64,000 nucleotides of DNA. It comes from Felis catus (Eukaryota). The DNA is taken from the NCBI RefSeq assembly GCF_018350175.1, contig NC_058368.1, positions 86,616,001-86,680,000 on the forward strand. Reading direction: 5' to 3'. Position 1 is the first letter of the stretch. Every line of letters begins with the position of its first letter. Made by a program: the position numbers and the translations under genes. Under the pieces are notes generated by a model. The model was not told the DNA's origin, searched no databases, and saw only the letters and a list, made by a program, of their open reading frames with translations. Positions 16,133 through 64,000 of this stretch are shown here, in pieces.

Positions 16133-19100
16133 GTTTCTGCAATTTCTTTCACAAGCTTTGTATACTTTTCAGTTCATAGATTTTTCACCACTTCGGTTTT
16201 GTTTATTCCTAGGTATTTTAAGGTTTTTGGTGCAATTGTAAATGGGATCAATTCCTTGATTTCTCTTTCTGTTGCTTTGTTATTGGTGTATAGGGATGAA
16301 ACTGATTTTTGTGCATTGATTTTACATCCTGCAACTTTGCTGAATTCATGGATCAGTTCCAGCAGTTGTTTTTGGTGGAATCTTTTGGGTTTTCCATATA
16401 GAGTATCACGCCATCAAAAAAGGGTGAAAGTTTCACCTCCTCCTGGCCGATTTGGATGCCTTTTATTTCTTTGTGTTGCCTGATTGTGATTCTTTGTGTT
16501 GTCTTCCAATATTATGTTGAATAAGAGTGGCGAGAGTGGACATCCCTGTCTTGTTCCTGACCTTAGGGGGAAAACTCTCAGTGTTTCCCCATTGAGAATG
16601 ATATTAGCTTTGGGTCGTTCATATATGGCTTTTGTGATGTTGAGTTTGATCCTTCTATACCTACCTTCTTTCTTTAGAGTTTTTGTCAATAAAAGATGCT
16701 TTATTTTGTCAAATGCTTTCTCTGCATCTGTTGAGAGGATCATGTGGTTCTTGTCCTTTCTTTTATTGATGTGATGAATCACATTGATTGTCTTGCTGAC
16801 ATTCAAAGATTCCTGCATCCCAGGCATGCATCCCAGTTTGTCGTGGTGAATAATTCTTTTAAGGTATTGTTGGATCAGGTTGGCTAGTATCTTGTTGAGG
16901 ATTTTTGCACTCATGTTCATCAGGGAAATTGGTCTATTGTTCTCCTTTTTAGTGGTGTCTCTGTTTTTGGAACTAAGGTAATGCTGGCTTCACAGAAACC
17001 ATTTTTTGGAATAGCTTCAAGAGAATAGGTGTTAACCCTTCTTTAAATGTTTGGTAGATGTCCCCTGGAAAGCCATCCAGCCCTGGACTCTTGTTATTTT
17101 GAAATTTTTTTTATTACTAACTTGTTTTCTTTACTGGTTATGGATCTGTTCACATTTTTTATTTCTTCCTGTTTCATTTTTGATAGTCTATATGTTTACA
17201 GGAATTCATCCATTTACCCCAGAGTGCCCATTTTATTAGTATATAATTGCTCATAACATTTTCTTATTATTGTTTGTATTGCTGCTGTGTTGGTTGTGAT
17301 CTCTCCTCTTTAATACTTGATTTTAATTATTTGAGTCCTTTCCTTCTTCTTTTTGATCAAACTGGCTACTGGTTTATCAATTTTGTTAATTCTTTCAAAG
17401 AACCAGCTTCTGGGTTCATTGATCTGTTCTACTGTTTTTGTTTGTTTGTTTGTTTGTTTGTTTGTTTTGATAGCATTGATTTCTGCTCTAATCTTTATTA
17501 TTTCCTGTCTTCTCCTGGTTTGGGGTTTTGTTTGCTGATTATTTCCAGCTCTCTCAGGTGTAGGATTAAGTTGTGTATCTGAGAGCTTTCTTTCTTCTTC
17601 AGGAAGGCTTGAATTACTACATATTTCCCTGTTATGACCACATTTGCTGCATCTCAGAGCCTTTGGGCTGTTGTGTTACCATTTTCTGTAGCTTCCATGT
17701 ACTGTTTAATTTCCTCTTTAACTTCACGGTTAGCCCATTCATTGTTTAGTAAGATATTCTTTAGTCTCCAATTATTCGTTATCTTTCCACATTGTTTCTT
17801 GTCCTTGATTTCAAGTTTCAGAATGTTGTGGTCTGAAAATTTGCACAGCATGATCTTGACATTTTTGTACTTCTTGAGGGCTAATATGTGTCCCAGTATG
17901 TGATCTATTCTAGAGAACGTTCCATGTGCACTGGAGAAGAAAGTATATTCTGTTGTTTTGGGATGAAATGTTCTGAATATATCTGTTAAGTCCAACAGGT
18001 CCAGTGTATCATTTGAAGACATTTTTTCCTTGTTGGTTTGCTCTTTAGATGATCTATCCATTGTTGTAAGTGTTGAAGTGTGCTGTAAGTTTGCTGTAAG
18101 TGTGGGGTTTTGAAGTTCCTTACTATTATAGTATTATTATCAAGGAGTTTCTTTATGTTTGTGATTAAGTGAGTTATATAGTTGGATACTTCCACATTTG
18201 GAGCATAAATGTTTACAATTTTTAGTTCTTCTTGGTGAACAGATCCCTTAATAATATAATGCCCTTCTTCATCACTTGTTACAGTCTTTATTTTAAAGTC
18301 TAGATATTCTGATACAAGTATGGCTACTCTGGCTCTCTTTTGGTGACTATTAGCATGATAGAGGGTTCTGCATACCTTACTTTCAATGTGAAGACGCTTT
18401 TAAGTCTAAAGTGGGTCTCTTGTAAACAGCATAAAGAGGGATCTTATTTTCTTATCCATTCTGTTACTCTATATGTTTTGATTGGAACATTTAGTCCATT
18501 GATGTTTAAAGTGAGTACTGAAATATATGAATTTATTGCCATTATGTTGCCTGTAAAGTTGGAGTTTCTGGTGTTGTTCTCTTGTCATTTCTATTCTTTG
18601 TTGATTTTTTTCCCCTCCCCTCAGAGAATGCCCTTTAAAATGTCTTACAGGACTGGTTTAGTGGTCACAAACTCGTTTAATTTTTGTTTGTCTTGGAAAC
18701 TTTTTATTTCTCCTTCTATTTTGAATGACAGCCTTGCTGGATAAAGAATTCTTAGCTGCATATTTTTCTGATTCATGGCTCTGCTTCATCCATCCTTGTC
18801 GCGCGTGGCGTCTATTCGAGGTTGCCGCTCAGTTATAAGCATATTTTATTTCATCCTGACTAGAGTTTACTTCTTTTATCTCCTCAGGAAGGGATTTTAA
18901 TCTATTTTCAACACAAGCTAGTATTCTTATTATCTTGATTCTAAATTCAGGTTCAGAAATCTTTCTTGTATCTATGTTGTTTCAGTCCCTGGCTGTTGTT
19001 TTTTACTGTTCTCTCTTTTGGGGTAAAATCCTTTGTTTTTTTCCTTTTGAAGGAAAGAAAGGAATTAACAAGGTAAAAAAAGTTAAATTCAAAAATTAAA

Positions 19101-19211
19101 AACAACACACACACACACACTCACACACATGCACACACACAAATCATATAAATGATGCTAGATCCTAGATGAATTTTTGTCTGGTTGTTGAAAAGAGCTT
19201 GATAGATTAGA
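14426..19211 (-). mobile_element. Younger felid-type LINE-1 (3'UTR, ORF2, ORF1 with ~440-bp deletion, broken inside 5'UTR)
   Basis: aatttacatccaagttagttag 3' end; RT remnant 16414-16920 (KILNKILAN...[15 protein letters not shown]); EN remnant 17654-18061; colinear with 53390-58690 apart from the ORF1 deletion at about 18775. Confidence 0.92.
17670..18830. repeat. Left arm (visible part) of a large inverted duplication
   Basis: Reverse complement of 62840-64000; position x pairs with 81670-x; 2 mismatches, no indels. Confidence 0.97.
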
Positions 19212-20335
19212 TATACATGGTATGATCTAATAAATGAGTTCCTTTATATTTGTTATTGTTTATATAGTTGAGTCCACACATTGGGGACATAAATATTTAC
19301 GAATGTTAGATGTTCTTGTTCAATAGACCTCTTTATCATGGTATTGTGCCCTACTTTTCTTGTTACAGTCTCTGGTTTAAATTTAGTTTTTCTGATAAAT
19401 GTTGCTACTCTGGCTTTATTGTGATGTCCTTCTCCATGATAATTGCTTCTCCATCCTCTGATTTTCAATCTTCAGCTGTCTTCTGGCCTAAAGTGAGTTT
19501 CTTGTAGGCACCATATAACTACATTTTTTTTTTACCATTCTGACACTCTATGCCTTTTGATTGAAGTTTTTAGTCCATTTACATTCAGAATAATTATTGA
19601 TAGATATGTATTTAGTCCCATTTTATTACTTGTTTTGTCATAGTGTTTGGAGATTTTCTCTGTTCTTTTCCTATCTTTTTCACTTTTGACCTTCTTTTTC
19701 CACCCAAAGTGTCCCCTTTAATATAACTTGCAGTGATTGTCTAGGAGGGCAAATTCCATTACTTTTATTAGTCTTAGAAACTATTTTTCTATCCTATTTT
19801 GAATGAAAGCCTTGCTAGATAGAGTTTTCTTCATTATATATTTTTCCCATTGAGCACATTCAATATATCATGCCGCTACTGCCCCGTGACTTGCCAAATT
19901 TCTATTGAGAGATCTGCAGCTAGCATTACGCATCTTCCCTTATAAGTTAGGGATTACTTTTGTCTTCCTACTTAAAATATTTTTTTTCATTATCACTATA
20001 TTCTGCATTTTAATTACCACATGACTGGTTGTTGGCTTGCTTTTGTTGATTTTGATGGGAGTTCTCTGCTACTGCTGGATCTGGGCATCTCTTTTTTTTC
20101 CCAGGTTAGGGAATTTTCAGATATTATTTCCTCAAATAAATTTTCTTTCTCTTCTTCTTTTGCTATACTAATATGTTGTTACTTTTTATGTACTTGCTAT
20201 TTCCCTAAATTCAGCTTAATTATGTTCCATTATTTATCCATTTTTTATATTCTATATCATTTATTCATTCCTCTTCTTCTTCATTCCTTGTGTTCATTGC
20301 ACAAATCTGTTTGGAAGCTCAGTTATTGCATTTTT

Positions 20336-20562
20336 TCATTTTTTTTTAAATTTTGTTTAATGTTTATTTATTTTTGAGATAGAGAGAGACAGAGCATGAA
20401 CGGGGGAGGGTCAGAGAGAGAGAGGGAGACACAGAATCTGAAACCGGCTCCAGGCTCTAAGCTGTCAGCACAGAGCCCAACGCGGGGCTCGAACTCACGG
20501 ACCGCGAGATCATGACTTGAGCCGAAGTCGGACGCTTAACTGACTGAGCCACTCAGGCGCCC
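20336..20562 (-). mobile_element. Felid CAN-SINE
   Basis: gccgaagtcggacgcttaactgactgagccactcaggcgccc; CpGs retained; TSD tgcattttttcatttt. Confidence 0.95.
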
Positions 20563-21555
20563 TGCATTTTTTCATTTTTGACAGACTTTTTAATCCCTTT
20601 CATGACTGTGGGAAAGGCCTCCCTGAAGTCTTCATTTCTTTTATTAAGCCTAGTCAGTATCCTTATGATTGTTTCATTAAATTCTCCATCAGGCATGTTA
20701 CTTATATCTGTGTCATTCAGATCTCTGGCCATGATCTTATCTTGTTCTTTCATTTGGGTATATTCCTCCATCTTAGCATTTTGTCTAAGTCTCTGCATGC
20801 TTCTGTGTTTAAAAAAAAGCCAGGCATGTTTCTTGCTCCTAAGAGTAATATCTTTATAAAGATGAGGTCATATAGTATCTAGGCCTGGTGCTACCAGGGA
20901 TGTCTGTTGTGTGCCTTGTATGTGATCTGATGTTAACATTTGCCTGCTCTATCCTTCAGGAAATTCATCTGCAGAGGCTCTCTTTGCCTGAAGTGGACAG
21001 TGTTTGGTCCTTGATCAGAGTGTGATGAATTCTAAATAGGTGTGCTCTAATTGACTTGTTAGGTGATCTCCAGTAATACTCCTAGTACAACTGAAGACCT
21101 GCAGAACTTTATGATTGAGAAATGTGCTTAGGACAAAGGCTTGGGCTGGTCATTTGGGGAAGGGGTCCACCACACTGGGACTGAGACAAGCTTCACTGAG
21201 AAGGGCAGTACTGCCAGAGTGCAGGGATGTGGGATTGGTATAAGCAAGCTAGGCATCAAGTGTTGGCATTGTGCTGTTTACTGGAATCAGCTCTGCATTT
21301 ATGCTGAGTCTTTGGAGAGGGAAAACTCACCAGCTGACCCCTTTGTCCCTGGACAGGTGCCTCTGTGCACATTGCTTCTCCAGGAGGCACACTGAGAAGT
21401 GCAAATAATCTCCCCATTGTGGTCCAGGCGTTTTGAAGATTGCTATTTTCATAATTTTTATCTTCCAATTGTTTGCCTGCCTTTGCTCCAGGGAACAGAG
21501 TGTCTTCCAGTCTTTAGAACAGCCAATCTTGCTGACTTTTAAAACTCTAAGCTTA

Positions 21556-21778
21556 GGATGCCTGGGTGGCTTAGTAGGTTAAGTATCCAACTTTGGCCTA
21601 GGTCATGATCATTGTTTTCAAGTTCAAGTCCCACATCAGGGTATGTGCTGACATCTCAGTACCTGGAGCCTGGAGCCTGGAGCCTGTTTCAGATTCTGTG
21701 TCTCCCACTCTCTTTCTCTGCCTCTCCCTCCCTCACACTCTGTTACTCTTTCTCAAAAATAAATAAACATTAAAAAAC
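21556..21778 (+). mobile_element. CAN-SINE with triplicated cctggag unit
   Basis: ggatgcctgggtggcttagt head; cctggagcctggagcctggagcctg; aataaataaacattaaaaaa tail. Confidence 0.92.
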
Positions 21779-22321
21779 TAAAAGTCCAACAACCCGTTCC
21801 TTTTTCCTTGGAGAGGCATCTCTGTGATTGCTACACCTCAGAGACACACTCCAAGAACAGTGAATAATTTATTCCCTTTATACCTCAGAGGCTCTTCGGA
21901 TTGGTGTTTCTACATGTTCTGCTCCCATGTAGTGTGTATTGTAGTTTGCCCACCCTCTCTCCAGGAGTAGGGCAATGCTCTCAGGGCTCTATCCCAACCA
22001 AGCCTTCAGACCTTTAAAACTCCAGTCTTTCAGTCTTCCTGGTTGCAACAACTGACAAAAAAATCAACTCCTCTCATTTTCCCAACCAATGCCCTTGGGA
22101 AAGCATTCTCCCATTGCATTCCCCTGTGTGCTTCTCTCTCTCTGGCCTTTTTCTGCAAACAAGATATCTCTGTTTCTCTGTAGCACCCAAGGTCTGTTTC
22201 TCTCCAAAACCATATCTCCATATTTCCTACCTGCTTCAATGTGGCTTCTTCCCTCCCTTTAGCTGTAGTGTTTGTTCTCTCAGTGTTCAGGTGGATTTAT
22301 GGGGTATCTGAAATGATTTCA

Positions 22322-23059
22322 GATCCTTGCAGAGGGGTGGAATGTGTCAAAGCTGCAGACCCTCAGAACTGGGGGACCGGGGAAGGTAGCCACATCTGAG
22401 ACAAAACTCGGGGGAGAGGTACTACCTGGGGCTTGTGTAAAAGCAGGAAGTGGACAAAAGCTGAAGACAAAGGATGGGTGTGTGTTTGCTGACTGGGGAG
22501 AACAGAGTTCTGACAATAGAGACTGAGTAACTATGTGACACCATTCTCAAAGCTCCCCAGCATACACATATGCACCTAAGAGCAGCACAACAATCCACCC
22601 CAGTAGGCTAGCAGCGCCATCTAGTGGAAACGGAGCCCTTACACTAAGCCCCGCCCAACTGGGCCAATCTTGCTCTTCACAAACAAGTCTCATGGCCTGA
22701 TTAATTTATGGACAATAAAGCTCTTCATAGTCTGACTTCTAGGGTAAAACAAAATAATTTCAGTCGTATTTAGTCTGTTAGTGGGTCCATCTATTCAATT
22801 TTCATTTTTTTTACTTTTTTTCTATTTTCATTTATTTTCTTTTTCCTGAATACAGAAAGAGGAAAAAAACCATTATTTTTAATTTTTATTAAAATATTTT
22901 CCTTTATATTTTACTATAGTCTTTACTTTTGTGTAATTTTTTTTCAAATTCTATTTTATTTCCATCATTTCACTTTAGTCTACTTCAGTGTATTCATTTT
23001 TACAAATTTTCAAATGATTTCCTTTTTTTCACCCCCCCTTTTTTCTCTAATCTTTCAAG
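22322..23059 (+). mobile_element. LINE-1 5'UTR segment of the younger family
   Basis: Diverged reverse-complement match to about 58678-59435; peptide SFVSDVATFP..LRVCSFDTFH appears in both 22319-22516(-) and 59197-59442(+). Confidence 0.9.
22612..22627 (-). promoter_or_regulatory. CTCF-like motif in L1 5'UTR
   Basis: cagcgccatctagtgg, i.e. CCACTAGATGGCGCTG on the minus strand, fits the CTCF core consensus; binding not shown. Confidence 0.6.
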
Positions 23060-23507
23060 ATATATATGTATGTGTGTGTGTGTGTGTGTGTGTGTCTGTG
23101 TGTGCGTATGCACATATAGTGGAATATTACTCAGCAATCAAAAAGAATAAAATCTTGCCATTTGCAACTTCATGGATGGAAGTGGAGGGTATTAGGCAAA
23201 GTGAAATTCTTCAGTCAGAAAAAAGACAAATATCATTTGACTTCACTCAAATGAGGACTTTAAGAGACAAGACAGATGAAGATAAAGGAAGGGAAACAAA
23301 AATAGTATAAAAACAGGGAGGGGGACAAAACATAATAGACCCATAAATATGGAGAACAAACAGGGCTACTGGAGGGGGTATGGGAGGAGGAAAGGGCTAA
23401 ATGGGTAAGGGGCACTAAGGAATCTACTCCTGAAATCATTGTTGCACTATATGCTAAATAATTTGGATGTACATTTAAAAATAAATAAATAAATAATATT
23501 TTTAAAA
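23060..23507 (+). mobile_element. LINE-1 3' end with (TA)/(TG) microsatellite and A tail
   Basis: ggaatattactcagcaatcaaaaagaataaaatcttgcc...aatctactcctgaaatcattgttgcactatatgcta...aaataaataaataa. Confidence 0.9.
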
Positions 23508-23509
23508 AG

Positions 23510-23904
23510 GTGGTTTTATTAATGCATGGGCACAGTATCCATGGGCAGAAAGTGCTGCCCTAGAAATGTTTGGATTGACTGATGTTATACTTGGAAGTTT
23601 GGATAGGCAAACAGGAGGGTTAGTTTCCAAGAGGATTTTCACATGCTAAAGACGACTTACAGGATTGGCGGCCTGGCTTTTGTCAAGATAAGGTTGTTTT
23701 TCCCTCTATCAAAGCATTAACATTGAGAGGGAACATTAACTGTAGGGAGCTCTTGGAGAAATCTGTGACTCTGCCTGTAGTATATATCAATGGGCTGCAG
23801 GGTACAAGGAGGTTTAATTTTATAAACATTTCTTTCTGCCTTTGTTTCCCAAAATGAATTTAGTTTTATCTACTTTTTTTTTTTGCCTCTTGTTTCCCAC
23901 ATCA
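23510..23904 (-). mobile_element. Partial ERV-type LTR
   Basis: Ends tgtttcccacatca (TG start on minus strand); tttattaatgcatgggcacagtatccatgggcagaaagtgctgc resembles a carnivore LTR poly(A) region as recalled. Confidence 0.55.
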
Positions 23905-24712
23905 CCACTACATATGATGTGTGTGTGTGTGTTGTTTTGTTAATAATAATAGAATACAACTGAGTTAAGTTTTTTTACATAAAAACTTCCATAATTTAAG
24001 CTTGTTTTACAAGAAAATAATCAGTTACGCAGAAACTTTCAAAATTTACAGGAAATATTTATTTTAGTTAATTTATACAAGAAAAATTAGAGCCAAACAA
24101 GAAAAATATTTACAGTTTCCTAATCAAGAAATTGCTTACTTATAAAAGATTCCTTTATATACATTGTTATTTTATTTTGTGAAGCCTGTATTCATAAATA
24201 AACTGTCAAGATTCAACAAAGAAATTCTAAGTAACTCTTCTCTATATAAAATATTTCTTGTCTCCTTTATATTCTATGAAATTTCTTAAAATTCTGTTCT
24301 GGTTTTATATACAAAATAAAATATTTTTAACTTCTGTATTGACATTGTCTTGTTAGAAATAATTGTACACTGACTCACATTTGCCTTTTTTTCTGATCTC
24401 ACTCTTTAATCTCCAGCAGCACAGATTTTGAGACTTCATGATAATCTGCTTTAATGAGAATTACCTACTGGAATGTGATGCTTATTTTTATAACCAAATG
24501 TTCCCTTTTCCTGTGAAAACATATTTGCTGTTGTTTTTTAAAGTAAGCTTTAAAAGTTTATAAAAATAATGCATATAATTAAAATAAATGAATGGACCAA
24601 GCAAGCTTCTTTTGTGTGTCTTTAAATTGCAGTTGGATTAAATGACTCACATTTTTCTTTATGAAATACACAAAACCACCCCCAGATTCGGGCTTCCTTA
24701 ACAAAAATAAAT

Positions 24713-24802
24713 AAAATAATAAAAGAAAAGAAAAGAAAAGAAAAGAAAAGAAAAGAAAAAAGGAAAGAAAGGAAAAGAAAAAAAAATAAAAGAAAATAAA
24801 AT
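24713..24802. repeat. A-rich / (GAAAA)n repeat
   Basis: aaaataaataaaataataaaagaaaagaaaagaaaag... Confidence 0.9.
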
Positions 24803-24929
24803 AAGTAACCCAGTTAGAGCCATTGGATGAATAAAGTCATAAATGGAATACTTAGATATACATTTTTCCAAGAAATCTTATTTTGGGATGATTACTACCA
24901 TTAATGGGATAAGGAAATATCTCCAGGTT

Positions 24930-25670
24930 TGAGGGGTTCAAATATGCTACCCCCAAAATGCCATTTGGTCATTTTGATTATTTTGAGGTGAAAGTACTTG
25001 AGAAATAGAAGATGCTGGAAGGATTCCCTGACCTTCCATTTATTTCTAAAAGCAAATCATAGTATTTCCAATAAGAAAAATGCCCTCCCTGTCCCAAGAA
25101 CACATATTGCAGTTTAGCTGTTGAGGTCGGAATAACCTACTAAAATGGCACTAATCATTCTTAAGTCCCTCCCATAGGTTTGGTGGGCACTCACCCACAA
25201 TTTATTAATACTAGTCAATGCCCTTGTTCTTGGCATATCCCAACAAGTTATAGTTGTTTGTTTAAAATGATACATAAGCTTTTGGGCCCAACAGCTTCTT
25301 TGGGTCTTCATTTTCCTTTTAAACACTCCTATATATGCACATAAAAAATATTTAATAAAGTCCATATATTTTTCTCCTTTTATTTATTTTTTAATATATT
25401 TTTTAAATATTTTATTTTATTTTTGAGAGAGAGGCAGAGCGTGAGCAGGGAAGGGTCAGAGAGAGAGGGGGGACAGAATCTGAAGTAGGCTCTAAATTGT
25501 CAGTGCAGAGCCTGATGCAGAGCTCAACCTCAGGAGCTGAGATCATTACCTGAATTGAAATTTGGCCACTTAACTGACTGAGCCACCCAAGTGCCCACAA
25601 CCTCTGCTAATATCTTGAGATCCAGTTGTATTATCGAGAAAAAATTTAATATAATGTATTTCTACTATTT
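24930..25670 (+). mobile_element. Solo LTR, MER34/MER39-like (ERV1), interrupted by a SINE
   Basis: tgaggggttcaaatatgctacccccaaaatgcc...ttgattattttgaggtgaaag start; aataaa at about 25354; right boundary uncertain. Confidence 0.6.
25378..25597 (-). mobile_element. CAN-SINE
   Basis: T-rich tail, gagagagaggcagagc, cttaactgactgagccacccaagtgccc. Confidence 0.9.
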
Positions 25671-26189
25671 CTATCATCCAGAAAAAGTTAATTACCCAAA
25701 GTCTTCTAAATAAGTATCTATTTCAGTTTATATCCACAATTATATAAACACCAATTAAATGCAGTCCCTAGCTCATCATATGTTTTTAACGACATTTATT
25801 GATTGAGTTATTTTGAGGTAAAAACTGACACATTTATAATAGCCCATCTATCAGATGGTATAATACTGGATCATTTAATTAAAACAACTATTTACCTACT
25901 ATTAAGGTGTAAAGTATGAAAACATTCATTAAATATCACATGGAATTAAGTCAGCCTATTTTCTGGTTGTGAATCTCTTGTGAATAGAAAGTTTGAGTTA
26001 CCCATATCATTGTGGCATTGCACTAAGACATTAAAGCAGAACAGTTATACAATTCTATTTTAGTAGAATTCAACCCAAAATGTCCATATTAAATGATATT
26101 AATTTTATATGTAATTTTTAATTCTTCCTGTTTGCAAGTGTGACTTGGGAACCCATTCTAAACTGATTATTTAAAAATATCTCTCAAAT

Positions 26190-27143: not shown

Positions 27144-27160
27144 ATCTCATTGTTTCTGAT

Positions 27161-27178
27161 CTGAAATAAGCCAACAAG
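27161..27178 (-). promoter_or_regulatory. Putative 3' splice acceptor of the OR coding exon
   Basis: Minus strand reads cttgttggcttatttcag|atcagaaacaatgagatATG, 17 nt before the ATG, the usual OR arrangement. Confidence 0.6.
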
Positions 27179-51593: not shown

Positions 51594-51661
51594 TTTTTGG
51601 ATTTGTTGATTTATCATTATGTAATGGCACTTTTAGTCTCTTGTTACAGTATTTCTTTTAA

Positions 51662-53379: not shown

Positions 53380-53737
53380 GACTTTTTTTTTAAAACTTAC
53401 ATCCAAATTAGTTAGCATATAGTGCAACAATGATGTCAGGAGTAGATTCCTTAGTGGCCCTTACCATTTAGTTCATTCCCCCTCCCACATCCCCTCCAGT
53501 AACCTTCTGTTTGTTCTCCATATTTATGGTTCTCTTATGTTTTATCCCCCTCCCTGTTTTTATACTATTTTTGTTTCCCTTCCCTTATGTTCATATGTTT
53601 TATCTCTTAAAGCCCTCATATGAGTGAGGTCAAATGACATTTGTCTTTCTCTGACTGACTAATTTCACTTTGCATAATACCCTTCAGTTCCATCCATGTT
53701 GCAAATGGCAAGATTTCAATACTTTTGATTGCCGAGC

Positions 53738-53774
<37 letters not shown>

Positions 53775-53890
53775 GTATATTTATATATATATTTATATAA
53801 TATATATACTCCATATATATATATATACTCCATGTATATATATATAATACAAATATATTATATATATATACTCCATTATATACACACACA
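53738..53890. repeat. TA-rich microsatellite expansion in L1 3' region
   Basis: (ta)n with repeated tatatactccat units. Confidence 0.9.
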
Positions 53891-56800
53891 TTATATACTT
53901 CTTTATCCATTCATCCATTGATGGACATTTCAGCTCTTTCCATACTTTGGCTATTGTTGATAGTGCTGCTATAAACATTGGGGTGCATATGTCCCTTCAA
54001 AACAGCACAATTGTATCCCTTGGGTAAATACCTAGTAGTGCAATGCTGGGTCGTAAGGCAGTTCTATGTGTAGTCTTTTGAGAAACCTCCATACTGTTTT
54101 CCAGAGTGACTGCACCAGCTTGCATTTCCATCAAAAATGCAAAGGAGTTCCTCTTTCTCTGCATCCTCGCCAATATCTGTGTTGCCTGAGTTGTTAATGT
54201 TAGCCATTCTAACAGGTGTAAGGTGGTACCTCATTGTGGTTTTGATTTGTATTTCCCTGATGATGAGTGATCTGGCGCATTTTTCATGTGTTGGTTGGCC
54301 ATATGGATGTCTTCTTTGGAGAAGTGTCTATTCATGTATTTTGCCCATTTCTTCACTGGATGATTTGTTTTTTAGCTGTTGAGTTTAGTATGTTCTTTAT
54401 AGATTTTGGACATTAACCCTTTATCTGATATGTCGTTTGCAAATATCTTCTCCCATTCTGTCGGTTGCCTGTTGTTTTGCTGATTGTTTCCTTCACTGTG
54501 CAGAAGCTTTTTATTTTGATGAGGTCCCAGTAGTTCATTTTTGCTTTTGTTTCCCTTGCTTCCAGAGACATATTGAGTAAGAAGTTGCTGTGGCCAAGAT
54601 CAAAGAGGTTTTTGCCTGCTTTTTCCTCGAGGATTTTGATGGCTTCCAGTCTTACAATGAGGTCTTTCATCCATTTTGAGTTTATTTTTGTGTATGGTGC
54701 AAGACAGTGGTCCAGGTTCCTTCTTCTGCAAGTCGCTGTCCAGTTTTCCCAGCACCCCTTGCTGAAGACACTGTCTTTATTCCATTGGATATTCTTTCCT
54801 GCTTTGTCAAAGAGTACCTGCCCATACATTTGTGGGACGTTTATGGGTTCTCTCTTTTGTTTCTTTGATCTGAGTGTCTGTTCTTGTGCCAGTACCATAT
54901 TGTCTTGATGATTACAACTTTGTAGTTTAGCTTGAAATCTGGGATTGTGATGCCTTCTGCTTTGGTTTTCTTTTTCAAAATTGCTGTGGCTATTTGGCAT
55001 TTCTGGTTCCATACAAATTTTAGGATTATTTTTTCTAGTTCTGTGAAGAATGTTAGTGTTATTTTGATAGGGATTAGATTGAATATGTAGATTGCTTTGG
55101 GTAATATAGATATTTTAACAATGTTTGTTCTTCCTATCCAGGAGCAAGGAATGTTTTTCCATTTTCTTGTGTCTTCTCCAATTTCTTTCAAAAGCTTTCT
55201 ATACTTTTCACTGTATAGATTTTTCACCTCTTTGGTTAGATTTATTCCTAGGTATCTTATGGTTTTTGGTGCAATTGCAAATGGGATCAATTCCTTGGTT
55301 TCTATTTCTGTCACTTCTTTGTTGGTGTATATGAATGCAACTGATTTCTGTGTATTGATTTTATATCCTGCAACTTTGCCAAATTCATGAATCAGTTCCA
55401 GAAGTTTTCTCATGGAATCTTTTGTGTTTTCCATATAGAGTATCATGTCTTCTGCTAAGAGTGAAAGTTTGACCTCCTTCTTGCCGATTTGGATGCCTTA
55501 ATTATTTCTTTGTGTTGTCTGACTGCAGAGGCTAAGACTTCAAATACTATGTTGAATAACAGTGGCTAGAGTGGCATTCTTGTCTTCTTCCTGACCGTAG
55601 GGGAAAGATCTCAATTTTTCCCCATTGAGGATTATATTAGCATTGGGTCGTTCATATATGGCTTTTATGATCTCGAGGTATGCTCCTTCTATCCCTACTT
55701 TCTTGAAGGTTTTTATCAAGAAAGGATGCTGCATTTTGTCAAATGCTTTCTCTGCATCTATTGAGAGGATCATATGGTTCTTGTCCTTTTTTTATTGATG
55801 TGAGGAATCACGTGAATTGTTTTGCAGATATTGAACCAGCCCTGCATTGCAGGTGTAAATCCCACTTTGTCGTGGTGAGTAATTTTTTGTTATGTATGGT
55901 TGGATCCAGTTGGCTAATATCTTGTTGAGGATTTTTGCATCCATGTTCATCAAGGAAATTGGTCTATAACTCTCCTTTTTAGTGGGGTCTCTGTCTAGTT
56001 TTGGAATCAAGGTAATGCTGGCTTCATAGAATGAATTTGGAAGTTTTCCATCCATTTCTATTTTTTGGAACAGCTTCAAGAGAATAGGTGTTAACTCTTC
56101 TTTAAATCTTTGGGAGAATTCCCCTGGAAAGCCATCTGGCCATGTGTTCCTCTTTTTTGGGAGATTTTTTATTACAAATTTGATTTCCTTACTGGTTATG
56201 GGTCTGTTCCAATTTTCTATTTCTTCCTGTTTCAGTTTTGGTAGTGTATATGTTTCTAGGAATTTGTCCATTTCTTCCAGACTGCCCATTTTATTGACAT
56301 ATAATTGCTCATAATATTCTCTTATTATTGTTTTTATTTCTCTGTGTTGGTTGTGATGTCTCCTCTTCCCTTCTTGATTTTATTTATATGGGTTCTTTCC
56401 GTTTTCTTTTTGATCAAACTGGCTAGTGGTTTATAAATTTGGAAATTCTTTCAAAGAACCAGCTTCTGGTTTCATTGATCTCTTCTATTTTTTTTTTTTT
56501 TTTTTTTTTTGGTTTCAAGACTATTGATGTCTGCTCTAATCTTTATTATTTCCTAACTTCTAATTTTGGGTTTTATTTGTGCTTCTTATTCCAGCTCTTT
56601 AACGTGTAAGGTTAGGTTATGCATCTGAGATTTTTCTTCCTTCTTTATGAAGGCCTGGATTGATATGTACTTTCCTCTTATGACCCCCTTTGCTGCGTCC
56701 ACGAGATTTTGGGTTGTGGTGTTATCATTTTCATGGGCTTCCACATAGTTTTTAATTTCCTTTTTAACTTCTTGGTTAGTGCTTCATTCTTTAGTAGGAT

Positions 56801-57615
56801 GTCTTTCAACCTCCAAGTATTTTTTACCTTTCCAAATTTCTCTTGTGGTTGATTTAGAGTTTCAAAGCATTGTGTTCTAAAAATATGCACGGTATGAAAT
56901 CGATCTTTCTGTACTTGCTGAGGGCTGATTTGTGTCCCAGTATGTGGTCTATTCTGGAGAATGTTCCATGTGCACTGGAGAAGAATGTATATTCTGTTGC
57001 TTCAGGATGAAAGGTTCTGAATATAACTGTTAAGTTCTTCTGGCCCAGTGTGTCACTCAAAGCCATTGTTTCCTTGTTGATTTTTTTGATTAGATTATAT
57101 GTCCATTGCTGTGAGTGGGGTGTTGAAGTCTCCTACTATTGTGGTATTTCTATTGATGAGTTTCTTTATGTTTGTGATTAATTGATTTATATATTTGGGT
57201 GCTGCCACATTTGCCACACAAATGTTTACAATTGTTAGGTCTTGGTGGATAGACCCCTTGATTATGATATAATGCCTTCTGCATCTCTTGATACAGTCTT
57301 TATTTTAAAGTCTAAATTGTCTACGTATGGCTACTTCGGCTTTGTTTTGTTGACCAATAGCATGATGGATGGTTCTCCATCCCCTTATTTTCAATCTGAA
57401 GGTGTCTTTAAATCTAAAGTGTGTCTCTTGTCAACAGCATATAGCTGGATCTTGTTTTCTTATCCATTCTGTTACCCTATGTCTTTTGATTGGAGCATTG
57501 ACTCCACTGACATTTAGAGTGAGTACTAAAAGAAATGAATTTATTGCCATTATGTTGCTTATAGAGTTGGAGTTCCTGGTGTTCTCTGATCCTTTCTAAT
57601 CTTTGTTGCTTTTGG

Positions 57616-57646
<31 letters not shown>

Positions 57647-59119
57647 GTGTTCTCCCCTCAGAGAGTCCCCTTTAAAATATCTTGCAAGGCTGGTTTAGTG
57701 GTCACAAACACCTTTAATTTTTGTTTTTCTGGGAAACTTTTTATCTCTCCTTCTATTTTGAATGACAGCCTTACTGGATAAAGAATTCTTGGCTGCAAAA
57801 CTTTACGATTCAGCGCTTTGAATATATCCAACCAATCCTTTCTGGTCTGTCAAGTTTCTGTGGATAGGTGTGCTGCAAACCTGATCTGTCATCCCTTGTA
57901 GTTTAAGGACGTTTTTCCCTTGCTGTTTCCATGATTCTCTCCTTGCCTGAGTATTTTGTGTATTTGTCTCTGATATACCTTGTTGATGGTCGGTTTTTGT
58001 TGAATCTGATGGGAGTCCTCTGTGCTTCCTGGATTTTGATATCTGTGTCTTTCCCCAGGTTAGGAAAGTTTTCTGCTTTGATTTGCTCACATAACATTTC
58101 TACCCCCATTTCTCTCTCTTCCTCTTCTGGGCCCCTATGATTCTGATGTTGTTCCTTTTTAATGTGTCACTGATTTCTATAATTCTTAAATCGTGCTCTT
58201 TTGCCTTAATCTCCCTCTTTTTTTTCTGCTTCGTTATCCTCTATAAGTTTGTCCTCTATATCGCTGTATCTCTGTTCTGCCTCATCCAGCCTTGTCGCTG
58301 CAGCATCCACTTGTGATTGCAGCTCAGTTAGAGCATTTTTTTTAATCCTGACTAGTTTTTACTTCTTTTATCTCCATAGAAAGGGATTCTAATTTATTTT
58401 TGATTCCAGTCAGTATTCTTATTATTGTGATTCTAAATTATGGTTCAGACATATTTAGCATCTGTGTTAAGTTCCTGGGTGTCATGTCTTCCTTCTCTTT
58501 CTTTTGGGGTGAATTCCTTTGATTCGTCATTTTTAAGGGAGAAAAGGAATTAATGAGGTAGAAAAAATTAAAATTAAAAAATATTAAAATTAAAAAATTA
58601 AACACACACACACACAAAAAATTGAATAAATGATGCTAGACCCTGGGTGTGTTATGGTCAGCGTTTTGAAAGTGGCTTGAAAGATTTGAGAAAAAAGGGG
58701 GGGGGGAGAAAAAAAGGAAATTGTTTGAAAATTTGTAAAAATGAATACACTGAAGTAGTCTAAAATGAAATGATGGAAGTAAAATAGAATTTGAAAAAAA
58801 TTACACAAAAGTAAAGAATATAGTAAAAAGTAAAGAAAAATATTTCAATAAAATTAAAAATAAGATGATTTTTTTCACTTTCTGTATTCAAGGAAAAGAA
58901 AAGAAATGAAAATAGAAAAAAAAGTAAAAAACCAAACAATGAAATTGAAAAGGTGGACCTGCAAACAGAGTGAAATATGACTTAAATTACTTCGTATTAC
59001 CCTAGAAGTCAGACTATGAAGCGCTTTATTGTCCATAAACTTATTAGGCCTTGAGACTTCTGTTTATGAAGAGTGATGTTGGCCCAGTTGGGCGGGGCTT
59101 AATGTAAGGGCTCTGTTTT

Positions 59120-59135
59120 CCACTAGATGGCGCTG
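59120..59135 (+). promoter_or_regulatory. CTCF-like motif in L1 5'UTR, next to a GC box
   Basis: ccactagatggcgctg; gggcggggc at 59090-59098; binding not shown. Confidence 0.6.
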
Positions 59136-60242
59136 CTAACCTACTGGGATGGATTGTTGTGGCACTAGTAGGTGTATATAAGCATGTGAAGGAGCCGTGA
59201 GAATGGTGTCACACAGTTACCTAATCTCTACTATCAGAACTCTGTTCTCCCCGATCAGCATTCACACACCCGTCTTTTGTCTTCAGCTTTTGTCCACTCC
59301 CCGCTTTTACACTGTCCATGACCAAGCCCCAAGTAGTACCTCTCCCCTGAGTTTTGTCTCAGATGTGGCTACCTTCCCCAGCCCTCCACTTCTGAGGGTC
59401 TGCAGCTTTGACACGTTCCACCTCTGCAGAGGGTCTCACTGAGCAAAGGTTGAATCCTGGCTGCATCCAGGAAAGTTCATGGGACCATGCTGCTGCTGAT
59501 GCCCAGAGACTGCAGCCTGGTTCCAGCCCGCCCCAGAAAAAGTTTACAAGATGTTGTAGCAGCAGTGTTTCAGGGATTATGGAAAATCACAACACTCATG
59601 TGGCACCAGGCTTCACCCTTAATGACCTTTTCCTTTTCCAGCAACAACAAATGTAGCTGTTCTCTGGGGTCTAATGGGACCAGGTGGTCTCAGTCTCTAC
59701 CAAATGTCCTTCCAGCAATGGAGCCACTTCTCCCCATGTGGCATGAGAACCTCCTGGATCCCACTCTGTTCCTGGGCATTTGCTCTTCCCACCAGAGCAC
59801 AACCAGGTATGTAGCTGCAGAGGTGGAGACACTGCACTCCCCCTGTTTACAGTCTTAATGGAATTTAAACCCTCTTCTTTCTCCCTTTTTAGTTTAGTCC
59901 CTACAGCTGTTTCTAATTTTCCACTTTATCTCCAGCTGCTTTTGGGGGGGTTGCTTTTGCCACACCCACCCCCCCATCTCCGTTCTATGCATGCAAAAGC
60001 AGCTCCCTGCCTGCTACAGCTTCTCTCTCCCCAAGTTCACCTCTGTGCACTGTGTACCTGCTGAATTCTGTAGTTCAGTTTGTGCAGATTGTTGTGTTAA
60101 TCCTCAGATCAGTTTTCTAGGTGTGCAGGATGGTTCAGTGTTGGTCTGGTTGTATTTCATGGACACAAGACACACAAAAAACTTCCATGCTCTTCTGCCA
60201 TCTTGGCTCCCTTTTATGATATTTATTTTAAATTTTTGATCA

Positions 60243-60930
60243 AGGAGGAGCTAGTAGTGTAGTAGAGGAGGAATCTAGGCTTCCCTCATCCCTTGAACAC
60301 ATCTAGATAAATTTCAAATCATTTTGAATAAAAAAGAAATTTCTGAAGACTGAGAAAATATTGAACAGTTAGACGGCGAGAAGAGGCCACATTTTGGAAG
60401 GTAGGATATGTGGACATGGTTTTGGGGAAAAATACAGATAGATGTTGAAGAGGGGCGAGAGCACTGGTCATAGTGAAAGGTGAGAGAGAGAAACACTCAG
60501 GGGATCCCACAAAGAGAATACTTCCACAGAGCCATTGATGGGGAAGGGGAGAGTGGCTGATTTTTGTGAGATTTGCAACCAGCAGGGTTCAGAGATTGGA
60601 GTTTTTGAGGTCACAAACATGGCTTGTGTAGAATTCTGTGTACTGTGTACTCTGTAGTGTTTCTGTAAAAGCAGGCAGGTAACCCAGGGGCAAATGGTGC
60701 CATCTCAGGATCATCGAAGATGCACTGGGAGAAACTGTTCCCTCGTCTTGGAGTGCAGCTGAAAGATGTATCTTTGCTTCTCCAGGGACAAAAGATCTTG
60801 TTGTTGACATTCCCCTTCCCTTCCCCTAACCATCCTTGCAGAGACACCTGCTGAGGACAGCTAACCCAGACATTGGCTGCTTAGTGTGCATTGTTCCTAA
60901 TTCCATGTTCCTGTGTCTGGTGTGACTGGT
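60243..60930 (+). mobile_element. Older carnivore LINE-1 5'UTR
   Basis: ctaggcttccctcatcccttgaacacatctagataaatttcaaatc; reverse-complement similarity to 21800-22320 and 8100-8450. Confidence 0.8.
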
Positions 60931-61164
60931 GTGACTTATTTTTTTGTCCCATGACACCAACCTGTAGGTATTAACACCCTAAAAGTGCTAACAGTTTTTT
61001 TCCAGTTTTTTTCTGAGTAACAAAAGTGGCATTACACTGTTTGCAGTACATACAATTGGTCAAAAATATTTTGAAAAATATTATAACAACAAATATAAAG
61101 AATTTATAATTTAAGAAAACGTTTTGGATATGAGTTAGGAATAACTTTTTAAAATATATGTCAT

Positions 61165-62839
61165 GAAATGAAAAGAAAAGAAAGAAAAGGAAAACACGAT
61201 GGTCCCAAATCTTTGGGATGCAACAAAAGCAGTCATAAGAAGGAAGTGTATAACAATACCAATAAGGCCTACCTCAAGAAGCAAGAAGAGTCTCAAATAA
61301 GCAACTTACCCCTACACCTAAGGGAGCTGGGGAAGGAACAACAAATACAGCCTAAAACCAGCAGAAGGAGGAAAATAATAAATATCAGAGCATAAATAAA
61401 TGATATAGAAACAAATAAAAAAACCCAGTAAAACAGATCAATTAAACAAGGAGGTCATTCTTTGAAAAAACTAGTACAATTGATAAACCTCTATACAGAA
61501 TTATCAAAAAGAAAAGGAAAAAGACCCAAATGAATAAAATCACAAGTGGGGGAGGATAAATAACAATGAACATGACAGAAATAAAACAATTATAAGAGAG
61601 TATTATGAAAAATTATTTTGCAATAAATTGGGCGATTTGGAAGAAATTCATAAATTACTACAAACATATAAACTACCAAAGCTGAATCAGAAAGTAATAT
61701 AAAACTTGGGCAAGACAATAGCTAGGAAGGAAATTGAACCAGTAATGAAAAATTACCTAAGAAACAAAAAGTTCAGGGGTAGATGTCTTTGCAGGGGAAT
61801 TCTACCAAAGGTGCAAAGAAGATTGAATACCTACTCTTCTCAAACTATTTCAAAAATAGAAATGGAAGGAAAACTGCCAAACTCATTCTATGAGGTCAGC
61901 ATTACTTTGGAGACAAACAATATGCTAAAAAAGAAAACTGCAAGCTAATATCCCTAATCCACATAGATGCAAAAATTCTTAACAACAGTGTAGCAAATTT
62001 AAGCGAACCATGTATTAAAAGATTCATTCACCATGAGCAAGTGGGATTTATTCTTGGGTTGCAATGGGGGTTCAATATATGCAAATCAATCAGTGTGATA
62101 TTAACAAAAGAATGAGCAAGAACTATATAGTCCTTTCAATAGATACAGGAAAAGCATTTGACAGAGTAAAACATACATCCTTAATAAAAAACCCTTAAAA
62201 AAGTAAAGATAGAAGGAACATACCTTAACCTAACAAGGGCTATAACCAAAACCCCACAGCTAATATCCTCCTTCATGGGGAAAAACAGAGTTTTCCTCTA
62301 TGGTCAAATAAAAGACAGGGATGTTTGCTCTCACCACCACTATTTAACATTATACCAGAAGACCGAGACTCAGTAGTCAGACAACAAAGAGAAATAAAAG
62401 TCAGTGAGAATAACAAGGATGAAGTCAAACTTTCATTCTTCTCAGACGACATGATGCTCTATATAGGAAACCTGAAAGACTACACTAAAAAAAATGCTAG
62501 AACTGATAAAAAAAATTCAATAAAGTCATAGGATACAAAATAAATGTGCAGAAATCTGTTGCATTTCTCTACACCAATAATGAAGCAATAGAAAGAGAAA
62601 TCAAGGATCAATCCCATTTACGATTCAACAAAATCTATAAGACAGCTAGGAATAAATCTAACCAAAGAGGTACAAAATCTGTATTCTGCAAACTATTAAA
62701 TATTTACCAATGAAATTAAAGAGGATAAAAAGAAATAAAAAGGCATTCTATGCTAATTGATTGGAAGAACATTGTTAAAATGTTTATACGACCCAAAGCA
62801 ATCTTCATTTAATGAAATCCCTATCAAAATATCAACACA
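61165..62839 (+). mobile_element. LINE-1 ORF2 middle (RT region), cut at the duplication breakpoint
   Basis: AYLKKQEESQISNL..., [27 protein letters not shown]...FSDDMMLYI; ends abruptly at aatccctatcaaaatatcaacac. Confidence 0.88.
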
Positions 62840-64000
62840 GAGTGGCAACCTCGAATAGACGCCACGCACGACAAGGATGGATGAAGCAGAGCCATGAATC
62901 AGAAAAATATGCAGCTAAGAATTCTTTATCCAGCAAGGCTGTCATTCAAAATAGAAGGAGAAATAAAAAGTTTCCAAGACAAACAAAAATTAAACGAGTT
63001 TGTGACCACTAAACCAGTCCTGTAAGACATTTTAAAGGGCATTCTCTGAGGGGAGGGGAAAAAAATCAACAAAGAATAGAAATGACAAGAGAACAACACC
63101 AGAAACTCCAACTTTACAGGCAACATAATGGCAATAAATTCATATATTTCAGTACTCACTTTAAACATCAATGGACTAAATGTTCCAATCAAAACATATA
63201 GAGTAACAGAATGGATAAGAAAATAAGATCCCTCTTTATGCTGTTTACAAGAGACCCACTTTAGACTTAAAAGCGTCTTCACATTGAAAGTAAGGTATGC
63301 AGAACCCTCTATCATGCTAATAGTCACCAAAAGAGAGCCAGAGTAGCCATACTTGTATCAGAATATCTAGACTTTAAAATAAAGACTGTAACAAGTGATG
63401 AAGAAGGGCATTATATTATTAAGGGATCTGTTCACCAAGAAGAACTAAAAATTGTAAACATTTATGCTCCAAATGTGGAAGTATCCAACTATATAACTCA
63501 CTTAATCACAAACATAAAGAAACTCCTTGATAATAATACTATAATAGTAAGGAACTTCAAAACCCCACACTTACAGCAAACTTACAGCACACTTCAACAC
63601 TTACAACAATGGATAGATCATCTAAAGAGCAAACCAACAAGGAAAAAATGTCTTCAAATGATACACTGGACCTGTTGGACTTAACAGATATATTCAGAAC
63701 ATTTCATCCCAAAACAACAGAATATACTTTCTTCTCCAGTGCACATGGAACGTTCTCTAGAATAGATCACATACTGGGACACATATTAGCCCTCAAGAAG
63801 TACAAAAATGTCAAGATCATGCTGTGCAAATTTTCAGACCACAACATTCTGAAACTTGAAATCAAGGACAAGAAACAATGTGGAAAGATAACGAATAATT
63901 GGAGACTAAAGAATATCTTACTAAACAATGAATGGGCTAACCGTGAAGTTAAAGAGGAAATTAAACAGTACATGGAAGCTACAGAAAATGGTAACACAAC
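62840..64000. repeat. Right arm (visible part) of the inverted duplication; L1 ORF1/EN sequence on plus strand
   Basis: Reverse complement of 17670-18830; identical peptides in the ORF track (18340-18744 vs 62926-63330; 17986-18195 vs 63475-63684). Confidence 0.97.

What the first reader, a model, noticed from the sequence alone, without database searches (positions are those of the whole stretch)
17670..64000. Inner ends of a large palindrome / inverted segmental duplication enclosing a 44-kb spacer with the OR gene
Seen: 17670-18830 is the reverse complement of 62840-64000 (x pairs with 81670-x) over 1161 bp with no indels and 2 mismatches, and the match runs to the last base of the window. 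The duplicated DNA is a dead L1 that differs at many positions from its sister at 56.7-58.4 kb. Both copies share private damage: a ~440-bp ORF1 deletion at about 18775/62895, the gtaagtg iteration, and stops. They are therefore one genomic segment copied, not two insertions. The spacer is 18831-62839 (44,009 bp). Established: multi-kb arms over 99% identical around a unique spacer are the architecture of mammalian sex-chromosome palindromes, which undergo arm-to-arm conversion and spacer inversion. Inference: much or all of 1-18830 is the left arm, and the OR-bearing spacer may be invertible. An X-chromosome location would fit the L1 density but cannot be shown here.
Basis: partly seen in the sequence, partly recalled or inferred. 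Interest (0 to 1): 0.9.

Follow-up and report, generated by a model that had tools for sequence, protein, structure and literature searches.

The report
Young autosomal inverted duplication, OR cluster
A 25-kb stretch of junk-rich DNA in a cat olfactory-receptor gene cluster has been copied backwards 44 kb away, giving a palindrome-like structure that could let the receptor gene between the copies flip, a known and fairly ordinary kind of rearrangement.

Summary
With DNA fetched beyond the window, the arms run from window -6014 to 18833 and from 62837 to 87687. They are about 24.85 kb each and 99.89% identical, around a 44,003-bp spacer. The unique arm DNA has exactly two copies in the genome.

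It meets the published working criteria for a large palindrome. It is not on the X: Xist exon 4 lies on contig C47, the window on the 239-Mb contig C1. The arms hold only L1 and SINE debris and a dead OR gene.

Junction anatomy makes the left arm the parent and the right arm the derived copy. The right arm's two joins cut an L1, a second L1 and a SINE, with only 2-3 bp of microhomology.

The arms differ by four clean substitutions, all transitions, and five microsatellite or homopolymer indels. A young duplication explains this without arm-to-arm conversion. Conversion and spacer inversion remain plausible but untested.

Assembly artefact is therefore unlikely but not excluded.

Verdict: a new member of a known kind, of modest interest.

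The parts
1..18833 (+). Left (parental) arm, window part. The full arm is window -6014..18833, 24,848 bp, starting 6,014 bp before the window.
   Evidence: Self-megablast of the 144-kb extended stretch, difference map, arm length.
18834..62836 (.). Spacer, 44,003 bp. It holds one intact OR gene plus L1 and SINE debris.
   Evidence: Of 147 open frames of at least 75 aa in window 1-62836, Pfam hits were 1 OR, 6 RVT_1 fragments and 1 L1 ORF1 domain. No Rfam match in the window.
62837..64000 (-). Right (derived, inverted) arm, window part. The full arm is window 62837..87687.
   Evidence: Both of its junctions cut repeats.
14813..19211 (-). Dead L1 at the inner end of the left arm. It continues about 380 bp past the arm boundary into the spacer, so the left inner junction is ancestral.
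   Evidence: A single BLAST alignment, 18780-19211 to sister L1 58276-58689 (73%), crosses 18833. 14813-18783 aligns to 53897-57820 at 79.6%. RVT_1 at 16417-16989 on the minus strand.
61184..62836 (+). Unrelated L1 ORF2 fragment, cut about 1.16 kb short of its 3' end exactly at the right inner junction (62836|62837).
   Evidence: 61184-62834 aligns to sister L1 56732-55057; five other L1 copies also end their match at 62830-62835. Junction alignment. RVT_1 at 62229-62528.
18800..18833 (.). Junction-proximal CpG cluster (6 of the arm's 101 CpGs). It carries 2 of the 4 clean arm-to-arm substitutions (18802 C/T, 18827 G/A), both derived in the right copy.
26190..27143 (-). OR-B, an intact 317-aa olfactory receptor gene in the spacer.
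   Evidence: ORF scan. Pfam 7tm_4, E = 1.1e-52.
26548..27134 (-). 587-bp run of OR-B (CDS positions 10-596) identical to the inverted paralogue OR-B' at window 95585-96526, outside the right arm. Read as a gene-conversion tract.
   Evidence: Flanks are about 70% identical while the 5' CDS is 99-100%. 36 of 37 CDS mismatches lie at position 597 or later.
53897..58689 (-). 'Sister' L1 in the spacer, used as the outgroup for the arm L1. It retains the ORF1 segment that the arm L1 lacks.

Best explanation
This is a real, evolutionarily young, two-copy inverted segmental duplication on an autosome, inside an olfactory-receptor gene cluster.

A 24.85-kb segment (window -6014..18833) was copied in reverse orientation. 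It holds L1 and SINE debris and a dead OR gene. The copy was joined in 44 kb downstream. Its inner end joins onto a broken L1 ORF2 fragment at 62836|62837. Its outer end joins onto a SINE that lost its first 29 nt at 87687|87688.

Both joins have only 2-3 bp of perfect microhomology. I infer that some acceptor DNA was lost: at least the L1's 3' 1.16 kb and the SINE head. This pattern fits two microhomology-mediated template switches (FoSTeS/MMBIR-type) or end-joining. It does not fit homologous recombination.

Shown:
- the structure and its copy number of two in the assembly;
- the polarity of the two inner junctions and of the right outer one (the left outer junction could not be checked);
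- the non-X location;
- the lack of intact genes in the arms.

Inferred:
- Mechanism, as above.
- Age. Four substitutions in 24.8 kb give roughly 10^4 to 10^5 years, using recalled mammalian rates of about 1-2e-9 per site per year.
- Consequence. The structure now forms a palindrome-like inverted repeat. That should allow arm-to-arm gene conversion and NAHR inversion of the 44-kb spacer carrying OR-B.
For: Structure:
- Arms of 24,860 aligned columns at 99.887% identity, the only high-identity self-match in 144 kb.
- No N in any fetched piece.
- A largely unique 3-kb arm stretch has exactly 2 full-length matches in the 2.43-Gb genome.

Polarity:
- The left arm's L1 runs uninterrupted across 18833.
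- The right copy's L1 is cut at 62837 and abuts a different, 3'-cut L1.
- The right outer flank is a SINE lacking the 29-nt head that all 7 other aligned copies have. The lost head ends GTTAAG where the arm ends GTTGAAG.

Genuine divergence:
- The four clean differences are all transitions, two of them at CpG.
- By comparison with related L1 copies, 1 is derived in the left copy and 3 in the right.
- All five indels lie in microsatellites or homopolymers.

Junction-linked mutation:
- 2 of 4 substitutions lie within 32 bp of the inner junction, both derived in the new copy.
- This matches the error-prone synthesis reported for replicative rearrangements (passages of PMC4352052).

Location: Xist exon 4 is on C47, not C1.

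Local precedent for contact between inverted copies: a 587-bp identical tract between OR-B and OR-B', whose flanks are about 70% identical.
Against:
- One search shows only that 20 listed runs from 11 studies hold at least half of the sampled words of the 10-kb stretch around the junction. That does not test the junction itself.
- The ancestral state of the left outer junction could not be shown, because no repeat spans it.
- Youth and efficient arm-to-arm conversion cannot be told apart without an orthologous sequence from another species.
- The two junction-proximal changes are CpG transitions inside a CpG cluster, so ordinary deamination could contribute.
- The age uses recalled mutation rates.
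Confidence: 0.68

Rival explanations
1. An old palindrome whose arms are kept nearly identical by ongoing arm-to-arm gene conversion, as in sex-chromosome palindromes. The low divergence would then say nothing about its age.
For: - It meets the size and identity criteria.
- Gene conversion between inverted paralogues 68 kb apart is evident in the same region.
- 2 of 4 substitutions sit in the last 32 bp of the arm, where conversion tracts would rarely reach. That is 2/32, about 6% local divergence, as expected for an old unconverted edge.
- Earlier notes report converted inverted L1 pairs elsewhere on this contig (unchecked leads).
Against: - The arms hold no gene that selection might preserve.
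- There is no arm-specific transposon insertion and no indel larger than 6 bp.
- Homology drops from 99.9% to none within 3 bp at both ends.
- Both edge changes are CpG transitions in a CpG cluster.
- The simplest reading of four differences is youth.
Confidence: 0.15
2. An assembly artefact: one 25-kb segment placed twice, the second time inverted, by the assembler.
For: - No read-level support could be obtained.
- Near-identical long repeats in L1-rich DNA are a known weak point of long-read assemblies (my own knowledge).
- 5 of the 11 listed differences are indels in low-complexity runs, where consensus errors occur.
Against: - Two separate precise joins would be needed, each into the middle of an unrelated repeat and each with microhomology typical of real breakpoints.
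- There are no gaps (N) anywhere in the 144 kb.
- The four substitution differences are all transitions, with derived alleles in both copies. That is not the pattern of consensus noise.
- The indels include 4-bp and 6-bp unit changes in AGTC, TTCT and GT arrays, typical of real microsatellite mutation.
Confidence: 0.1
3. A by-product of an inversion made by staggered breaks. The spacer was inverted, and the stretch between the staggered nicks was filled in at both ends, leaving inverted duplicates flanking the inverted segment.
For: The product has the same outline: inverted duplicates flanking a segment. This model is known from Drosophila and Anopheles inversion breakpoints (recalled; PMC1952172 seen only in the search listing).
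Against: - The model predicts one ancestral and one novel junction on each copy. Here the left inner junction is ancestral, and both junctions of the right copy are novel.
- The mirror version needs the SINE's 5' truncation to coincide by chance with the nick.
- A stagger of 24.85 kb is very large for this model.
Confidence: 0.05

Closest known systems
Large inverted repeats (palindromes) of mammalian genomes, for example human X palindrome P24 (FLNA/EMD region) and the human X palindromes of Jackson et al. 2021 (PMC8327919, passages read). Warburton et al. 2004 is cited there; I could not read it.
   Same: - Arms over 8 kb and over 99% identical, head to head around a unique spacer. The 44-kb spacer lies within the reported 77 bp to 358 kb range.
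- A protein-coding gene in the spacer, as in 11 of 26 human X palindromes.
- Expected NAHR inversion of the spacer. P24 is inverted in 18% of European X chromosomes according to that paper.
   Different: - It lies on an autosomal contig, not the X or Y.
- No intact gene in the arms, against 21 of 26 human X palindromes with arm genes.
- No evidence of conservation between species or of conversion.
- Divergence is low enough to be explained by youth alone.
Inverted-repeat-mediated polymorphic inversions in humans (Aguado et al. 2014, PMC3961182, passages read). Also the OR-cluster low-copy repeats that mediate the 8p23.1 inversion (papers seen only in the search listing).
   Same: - Inverted segmental duplications flanking a tens-of-kb segment.
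- Such inversions recur often: 11 of 16 analysed showed signs of recurrence.
- The setting is an OR gene cluster.
   Different: - Here the inversion itself is only predicted.
- The repeated units are not OR-gene-bearing low-copy repeats. They are repeat-rich DNA with one OR pseudogene.
- The scale is about 94 kb, not megabases.
Non-recurrent replicative rearrangements (FoSTeS/MMBIR). Hastings et al. 2009 (PMC2621351) was seen only in the search listing; passages of PMC4352052 were read.
   Same: - Breakpoints in non-homologous sequence with 2-3 bp of microhomology.
- An inverted copy templated from nearby DNA.
- Inferred loss of DNA at the acceptor site.
- Point changes clustered next to a junction in the new copy.
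   Different: - This is a rearrangement carried in a species' assembled genome, not a de novo disease allele.
- There are only two junctions.
- The mechanism is inferred from the junction sequences only.

Membership tests
Large palindrome / large inverted repeat (working definition of PMC8327919) | Arm length over 8 kb | tested here: met
   The arms span 24,848 and 24,851 positions (-6014..18833 and 62837..87687).
Large palindrome / large inverted repeat (working definition of PMC8327919) | Arm-to-arm nucleotide identity over 99% | tested here: met
   99.887% over 24,860 columns: four clean substitutions, two G/T changes inside a poly-T indel, five indels.
Large palindrome / large inverted repeat (working definition of PMC8327919) | Head-to-head orientation around a spacer | tested here: met
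   Inverted orientation with a 44,003-bp spacer. The reported range is 77 bp to 358 kb.
Sex-chromosome palindrome | Located on the X or Y chromosome | tested here: not met
   The window is on C1 (239,367,248 bp). Xist exon 4 (RF01881) matches C47:60.02 Mb at 127.5 bits, cut-off 100.
Sex-chromosome palindrome | Protein-coding (often testis-biased) gene families in the arms | tested here: not met
   - In window 1-18833, the only Pfam hit among open frames of at least 75 aa is an L1 RVT_1 fragment.
- The only OR match in the arms is a pseudogene with many stops.
- The -6014..0 part of the arm was covered only by the scan for ATG-started frames of at least 150 aa and by tblastn with three ORs.
- Expression was not tested.
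Sex-chromosome palindrome | Arm identity maintained by gene conversion (identity higher than the age allows; orthologous palindrome in other species) | not testable with these tools
   No other mammalian genome is held.
Inverted-repeat-mediated inversion polymorphism | Both spacer orientations found among individuals | not testable with these tools
The assembled haplotype is in the ancestral orientation, because the left arm's L1 continues into the spacer.
Segmental duplication (at least 1 kb and 90% identity; definition recalled) | Low-copy duplicated segment of at least 1 kb at 90% identity or more that is not a transposon family | tested here: met
   There are two copies only. A 3-kb largely unique arm stretch has no third full-length match; the other matches are pieces of about 130-360 bp at 69-81% identity.
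FoSTeS/MMBIR-type rearrangement | Junctions with microhomology and no extended homology | tested here: met
   The outer junction shares AAG perfectly (GTTGAAG against GTTAAG). The inner junction shares at most 2-3 bp. The partners are an L1 5' region with an L1 ORF2 fragment, and unique DNA with a SINE.
FoSTeS/MMBIR-type rearrangement | Replicative origin (template switching), as opposed to break and ligation | tested here: inconclusive
   The inverted templated copy and the 2 of 4 substitutions within 32 bp of a junction fit a replicative origin. End-joining of a duplicated fragment would leave the same junctions.
Inverted duplications from staggered-break inversions | Each copy has one ancestral and one novel junction | tested here: not met
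   Both junctions of the right copy cut repeats. The left inner junction is continuous L1. The left outer junction could not be polarised.

The most novel reading that the evidence does not exclude
The structure is an active autosomal palindrome in a cat OR cluster. Its arms would be homogenised by conversion. Its 44-kb spacer would toggle orientation among individuals. Toggling would flip an intact OR gene (OR-B) between inverted and direct orientation relative to its converting paralogue OR-B'. In the direct state, OR-B and OR-B' could drive NAHR deletion or duplication.

A bolder variant is that the inverted duplication and the 587-bp OR-B/OR-B' identical tract are scars of one multi-template-switch event.
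Probability: 0.15. Interest if true: 0.5.

Novelty: new member of a known kind. Interest (0 to 1): 0.3.

Why it matters
The structure marks a probable hotspot of structural change in a carnivore OR cluster: presence/absence of the duplicate, inversion of a 44-kb OR-bearing segment, and secondary rearrangements. Its junctions are unusually readable. They show which copy is the parent, and they show a non-homologous, microhomology-type origin. That makes it a clean natural example of how palindrome-like repeats are born on autosomes. In practice, short-read mapping and SNP calling over about 50 kb here will be unreliable, and the spacer orientation cannot be inferred from SNPs. None of this is unexpected for mammalian genomes.

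Tried and rejected
- Read support. The look-up of sequencing runs listed 24 runs, 20 of which hold at least half of the sampled words of L017. No junction or depth test was therefore possible. The word shares are not evidence for the junction.\n- An older, wider palindrome hidden in the spacer. An 85% inverted pair at 22321-23059 and 59436-58676 lies almost symmetrically about the axis (coordinate sum 81757 against 81670). It is a multi-copy repeat, with 2,899 first-look candidates and other copies at 79-82% identity. By position it is most likely an L1 5' end. No other symmetric homology was seen, so I read it as coincidence.\n- A larger inverted duplication that includes the ORs. OR-B and OR-B' are inverted paralogues but are not collinear with the arms. 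They are a separate, much older duplication.\n- Continuity of the left outer junction. No repeat spans -6014, so it could not be polarised.\n- Acceptor-site continuity. The L1 piece after the SINE (87951-88429) covers the same part of the L1 as 61184-62835, so it is not that fragment's missing 3' end.\n- Rfam scan of the window: no match.\n- Earlier scan notes near this place: none.\n- Warburton et al. 2004 (PMC524409) is not held. A search for a felid structural-variation study listed no such study among its ten rows.\n- I did not scan metagenome contigs for the junction, because host DNA of this locus is very unlikely to be there.


Full report
OBSERVATION

The inverted match exists as described. 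The repeat finder reports arms 17670-18833 and 62837-64000, 1164 nt, with 44,003 nt between them. A base-by-base test of the pairing x with 81670-x finds two mismatches inside 17670-18830, at 18802 and 18827, and random pairing beyond 18833.

The window is G000:C1:86616001-86680000, on a contig of 239,367,248 bp in a 2.43-Gb, 71-contig genome. I fetched 40 kb on each side and compared the 144-kb stretch with itself. A single inverted alignment runs from window -6014..18833 to 87687..62837. It spans 24,860 columns at 99.887% identity, with 7 mismatches and 5 gap openings. It is the only self-match of at least 90% identity and 300 bp in that stretch.

The match goes on for 23.7 kb. No fetched piece contains an N. 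A largely unique 3-kb part of the arm (window 8100-11100) has exactly two full-length matches in the whole genome. The other 38 listed matches are pieces of about 130-360 bp at 69-81% identity.

WHAT THE ARMS AND SPACER CONTAIN

Of 147 open frames of at least 75 aa in window 1-62836, Pfam recognises only three kinds of domain:
- one olfactory receptor, 26193-27146 on the minus strand;
- six L1 reverse-transcriptase fragments;
- one L1 ORF1 RBD-like domain, 57906-58166.

Within the arm part (1-18833) the only hit is an L1 RVT_1 fragment at 16417-16989.

tblastn with the three intact ORs of the region finds one further OR-like stretch in each arm, at -2493..-3387 on the minus strand and 84166..85060 on the plus strand. 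It is 26-28% identical to the queries and riddled with stops, so it is a pseudogene.

The intact ORs are:
- OR-A at -9419..-8472 (+), 315 aa, 2.4 kb outside the left arm;
- OR-B at 26190-27143 (-), 317 aa, in the spacer;
- OR-B' at 95585-96526 (+), 313 aa, 7.9 kb outside the right arm.

All three match Pfam 7tm_4 with E-values of 1e-49 to 1e-54. One public source names OR-B' 'olfactory receptor 6F1-like [Felis catus]'. Rfam finds nothing in the window.

WHICH COPY IS THE PARENT

The inner end of each arm lies in the 5' region of a dead L1.

- Left inner junction. The L1 continues past the boundary. One BLAST alignment, 18780-19211 to the sister L1's 58276-58689 (73%), crosses 18833. This junction is ancestral.
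- Right inner junction. The same L1 stops at 62837. It abuts a different L1 fragment (61184-62835, ORF2 region, sense on the plus strand) that is itself cut about 1.16 kb short of its 3' end. Five other L1 copies in the region also end their match to that fragment at 62830-62835.
- Right outer junction. Arm DNA is joined to a carnivore-type SINE lacking the first 29 nt that all seven other aligned copies have. The name 'carnivore-type SINE' is recalled, not from a call.
- Left outer junction. The left outer flank is unique DNA, and no repeat spans it. Its ancestral status is inferred, not shown.

Both junctions of the right copy are therefore novel. The left arm is the parent.

HOW IT FORMED

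Neither novel junction lies in extended homology.

- At the outer junction the arm ends GTTGAAG, where the lost SINE head would have ended GTTAAG. That is 3 bp of perfect microhomology, or 6 of 7 imperfect.
- At the inner junction at most 2-3 bp are shared.
- The acceptor side must have lost at least the L1's 3' end and the SINE head.

This is the signature of two microhomology-mediated template switches (FoSTeS/MMBIR) or of end-joining. It is not NAHR.

A staggered-break inversion would leave one ancestral and one novel junction on each copy. That is not what is seen here.

ARM DIFFERENCES

One search lists four clean substitutions, all transitions:
- -1916, T/C;
- 16215, A/G;
- 18802, C/T;
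- 18827, G/A.

It also lists two G/T changes inside a poly-T indel, and five indels. All five indels lie in microsatellites or homopolymers: AGTC, poly-T twice, GT and TTCT.

Related L1 copies polarise one substitution as derived in the left copy and three as derived in the right copy.

Two of the four lie within 32 bp of the inner junction. Both are CpG transitions derived in the new copy, and they sit in a cluster holding 6 of the arm's 101 CpGs. I assumed CpG sites are about 12 times more mutable than other sites. On that assumption, two or more of four substitutions falling there has a probability of about 2e-4. This is my own arithmetic on the counts, not a tool output.

Two readings fit:
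- error-prone synthesis, or single-strand exposure, at a template switch (replicative rearrangements are described as error-prone in passages of PMC4352052);
- an unconverted edge of an older palindrome.

AGE

Four substitutions in 24,848 bp is 1.6e-4. With recalled mammalian rates of about 1-2e-9 per site per year, that gives an order of 10^4 to 10^5 years if no conversion has acted. Youth is the simplest reading. Conversion cannot be excluded without another species' sequence.

LOCATION

The X-chromosome idea fails. Rfam's Xist_exon4 model matches C47:60,021,384-60,021,508 at 127.5 bits (cut-off 100), and no match on C1 was reported.

Earlier scan notes place RNF17, PARP4 and STOML3 on this contig. 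These are unchecked leads. From my own knowledge, those genes are autosomal in humans.

IS IT AN ARTEFACT?

I could not test reads. The look-up of sequencing runs listed 24 runs, 20 of which hold at least half of the sampled words of the 10-kb stretch around 62836|62837. That does not test the junction.

The internal evidence argues for a real structure:
- two precise microhomology junctions in the middle of unrelated repeats;
- no gaps;
- differences that are all transitions, with derived alleles in both copies;
- unit-length changes in microsatellites.

I put an artefact at about 10%.

WHAT IT DOES

By the working criteria for large palindromes it qualifies. Those criteria are arms over 8 kb and identity over 99%. 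The observed spacers are 77 bp to 358 kb (PMC8327919).

Such inverted repeats mediate recurrent inversions:
- human X palindrome P24 is inverted in 18% of European X chromosomes (same paper);
- 11 of 16 inverted-repeat-flanked human inversions show signs of recurrence (PMC3961182).

The 44-kb spacer with OR-B is therefore predicted to be invertible, and the arms to exchange sequence. The assembled haplotype is in the ancestral orientation. These consequences are inferred, not shown.

SIDE FINDING

OR-B and OR-B' are inverted paralogues 68 kb apart. Their flanks are about 70% identical, but CDS positions 10-596 are identical. Of 37 mismatches in 939 CDS positions, 36 lie at position 597 or later, and 1 lies at position 9. 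This is a clear recent gene-conversion tract. It shows that inverted copies in this neighbourhood do interact.

VERDICT

This is a genuine, probably young, gene-poor autosomal inverted segmental duplication in an OR cluster. It is a new member of a well-known kind. The sex-chromosome framing was not.

Noticed in passing
window 26190-27143 (-) and L012:1585-2526 (+) = window 95585-96526: OR-B (in the spacer) and OR-B' (outside the right arm) are inverted paralogues. Their flanks are about 70% identical, but CDS positions 10-596 are identical (a 587-bp run). 36 of 37 CDS mismatches lie after position 596. This is a recent gene-conversion tract between inverted OR genes 68 kb apart. If the spacer were inverted, the two genes would become direct repeats.
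   Followed up: partly
window 22321-23059 and 58676-59436: An 85% identical inverted pair of a multi-copy repeat (2,899 first-look candidates; by position probably an L1 5' end) lies almost exactly symmetric about the palindrome axis. The coordinate sums are 81757 against 81670. I read this as coincidence, but the pair is slightly more alike than either is to other genomic copies (79-82% identity).
   Followed up: partly
L013:9129-10000 plus window 1-112 (window -871..112), and window 14663-15656: Each arm contains an internal inverted L1 pair of about 1 kb at 89.5% identity, roughly 15 kb apart. The full structure therefore holds four copies of this piece in alternating orientation.
   Followed up: no
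L013:581-1528 (window -9419..-8472, +): An intact 315-aa OR (OR-A) lies 2.4 kb outside the left arm. It shares a 90% identity cluster with ORs named from spotted hyena and lion, so it is a conserved carnivore OR next to the breakpoint.
   Followed up: partly
L011:166-1060 (window 84166-85060, +) and its twin at window -2493..-3387 (-): A heavily decayed OR pseudogene (26-28% identity to OR-A, OR-B and OR-B', many stops) is the only gene relic inside the arms, and it was duplicated with them.
   Followed up: partly
window 18065-18104: An 11-bp tandem array (TGTAAGTGTGC, 3.9 copies) lies inside the arm L1.
   Followed up: yes
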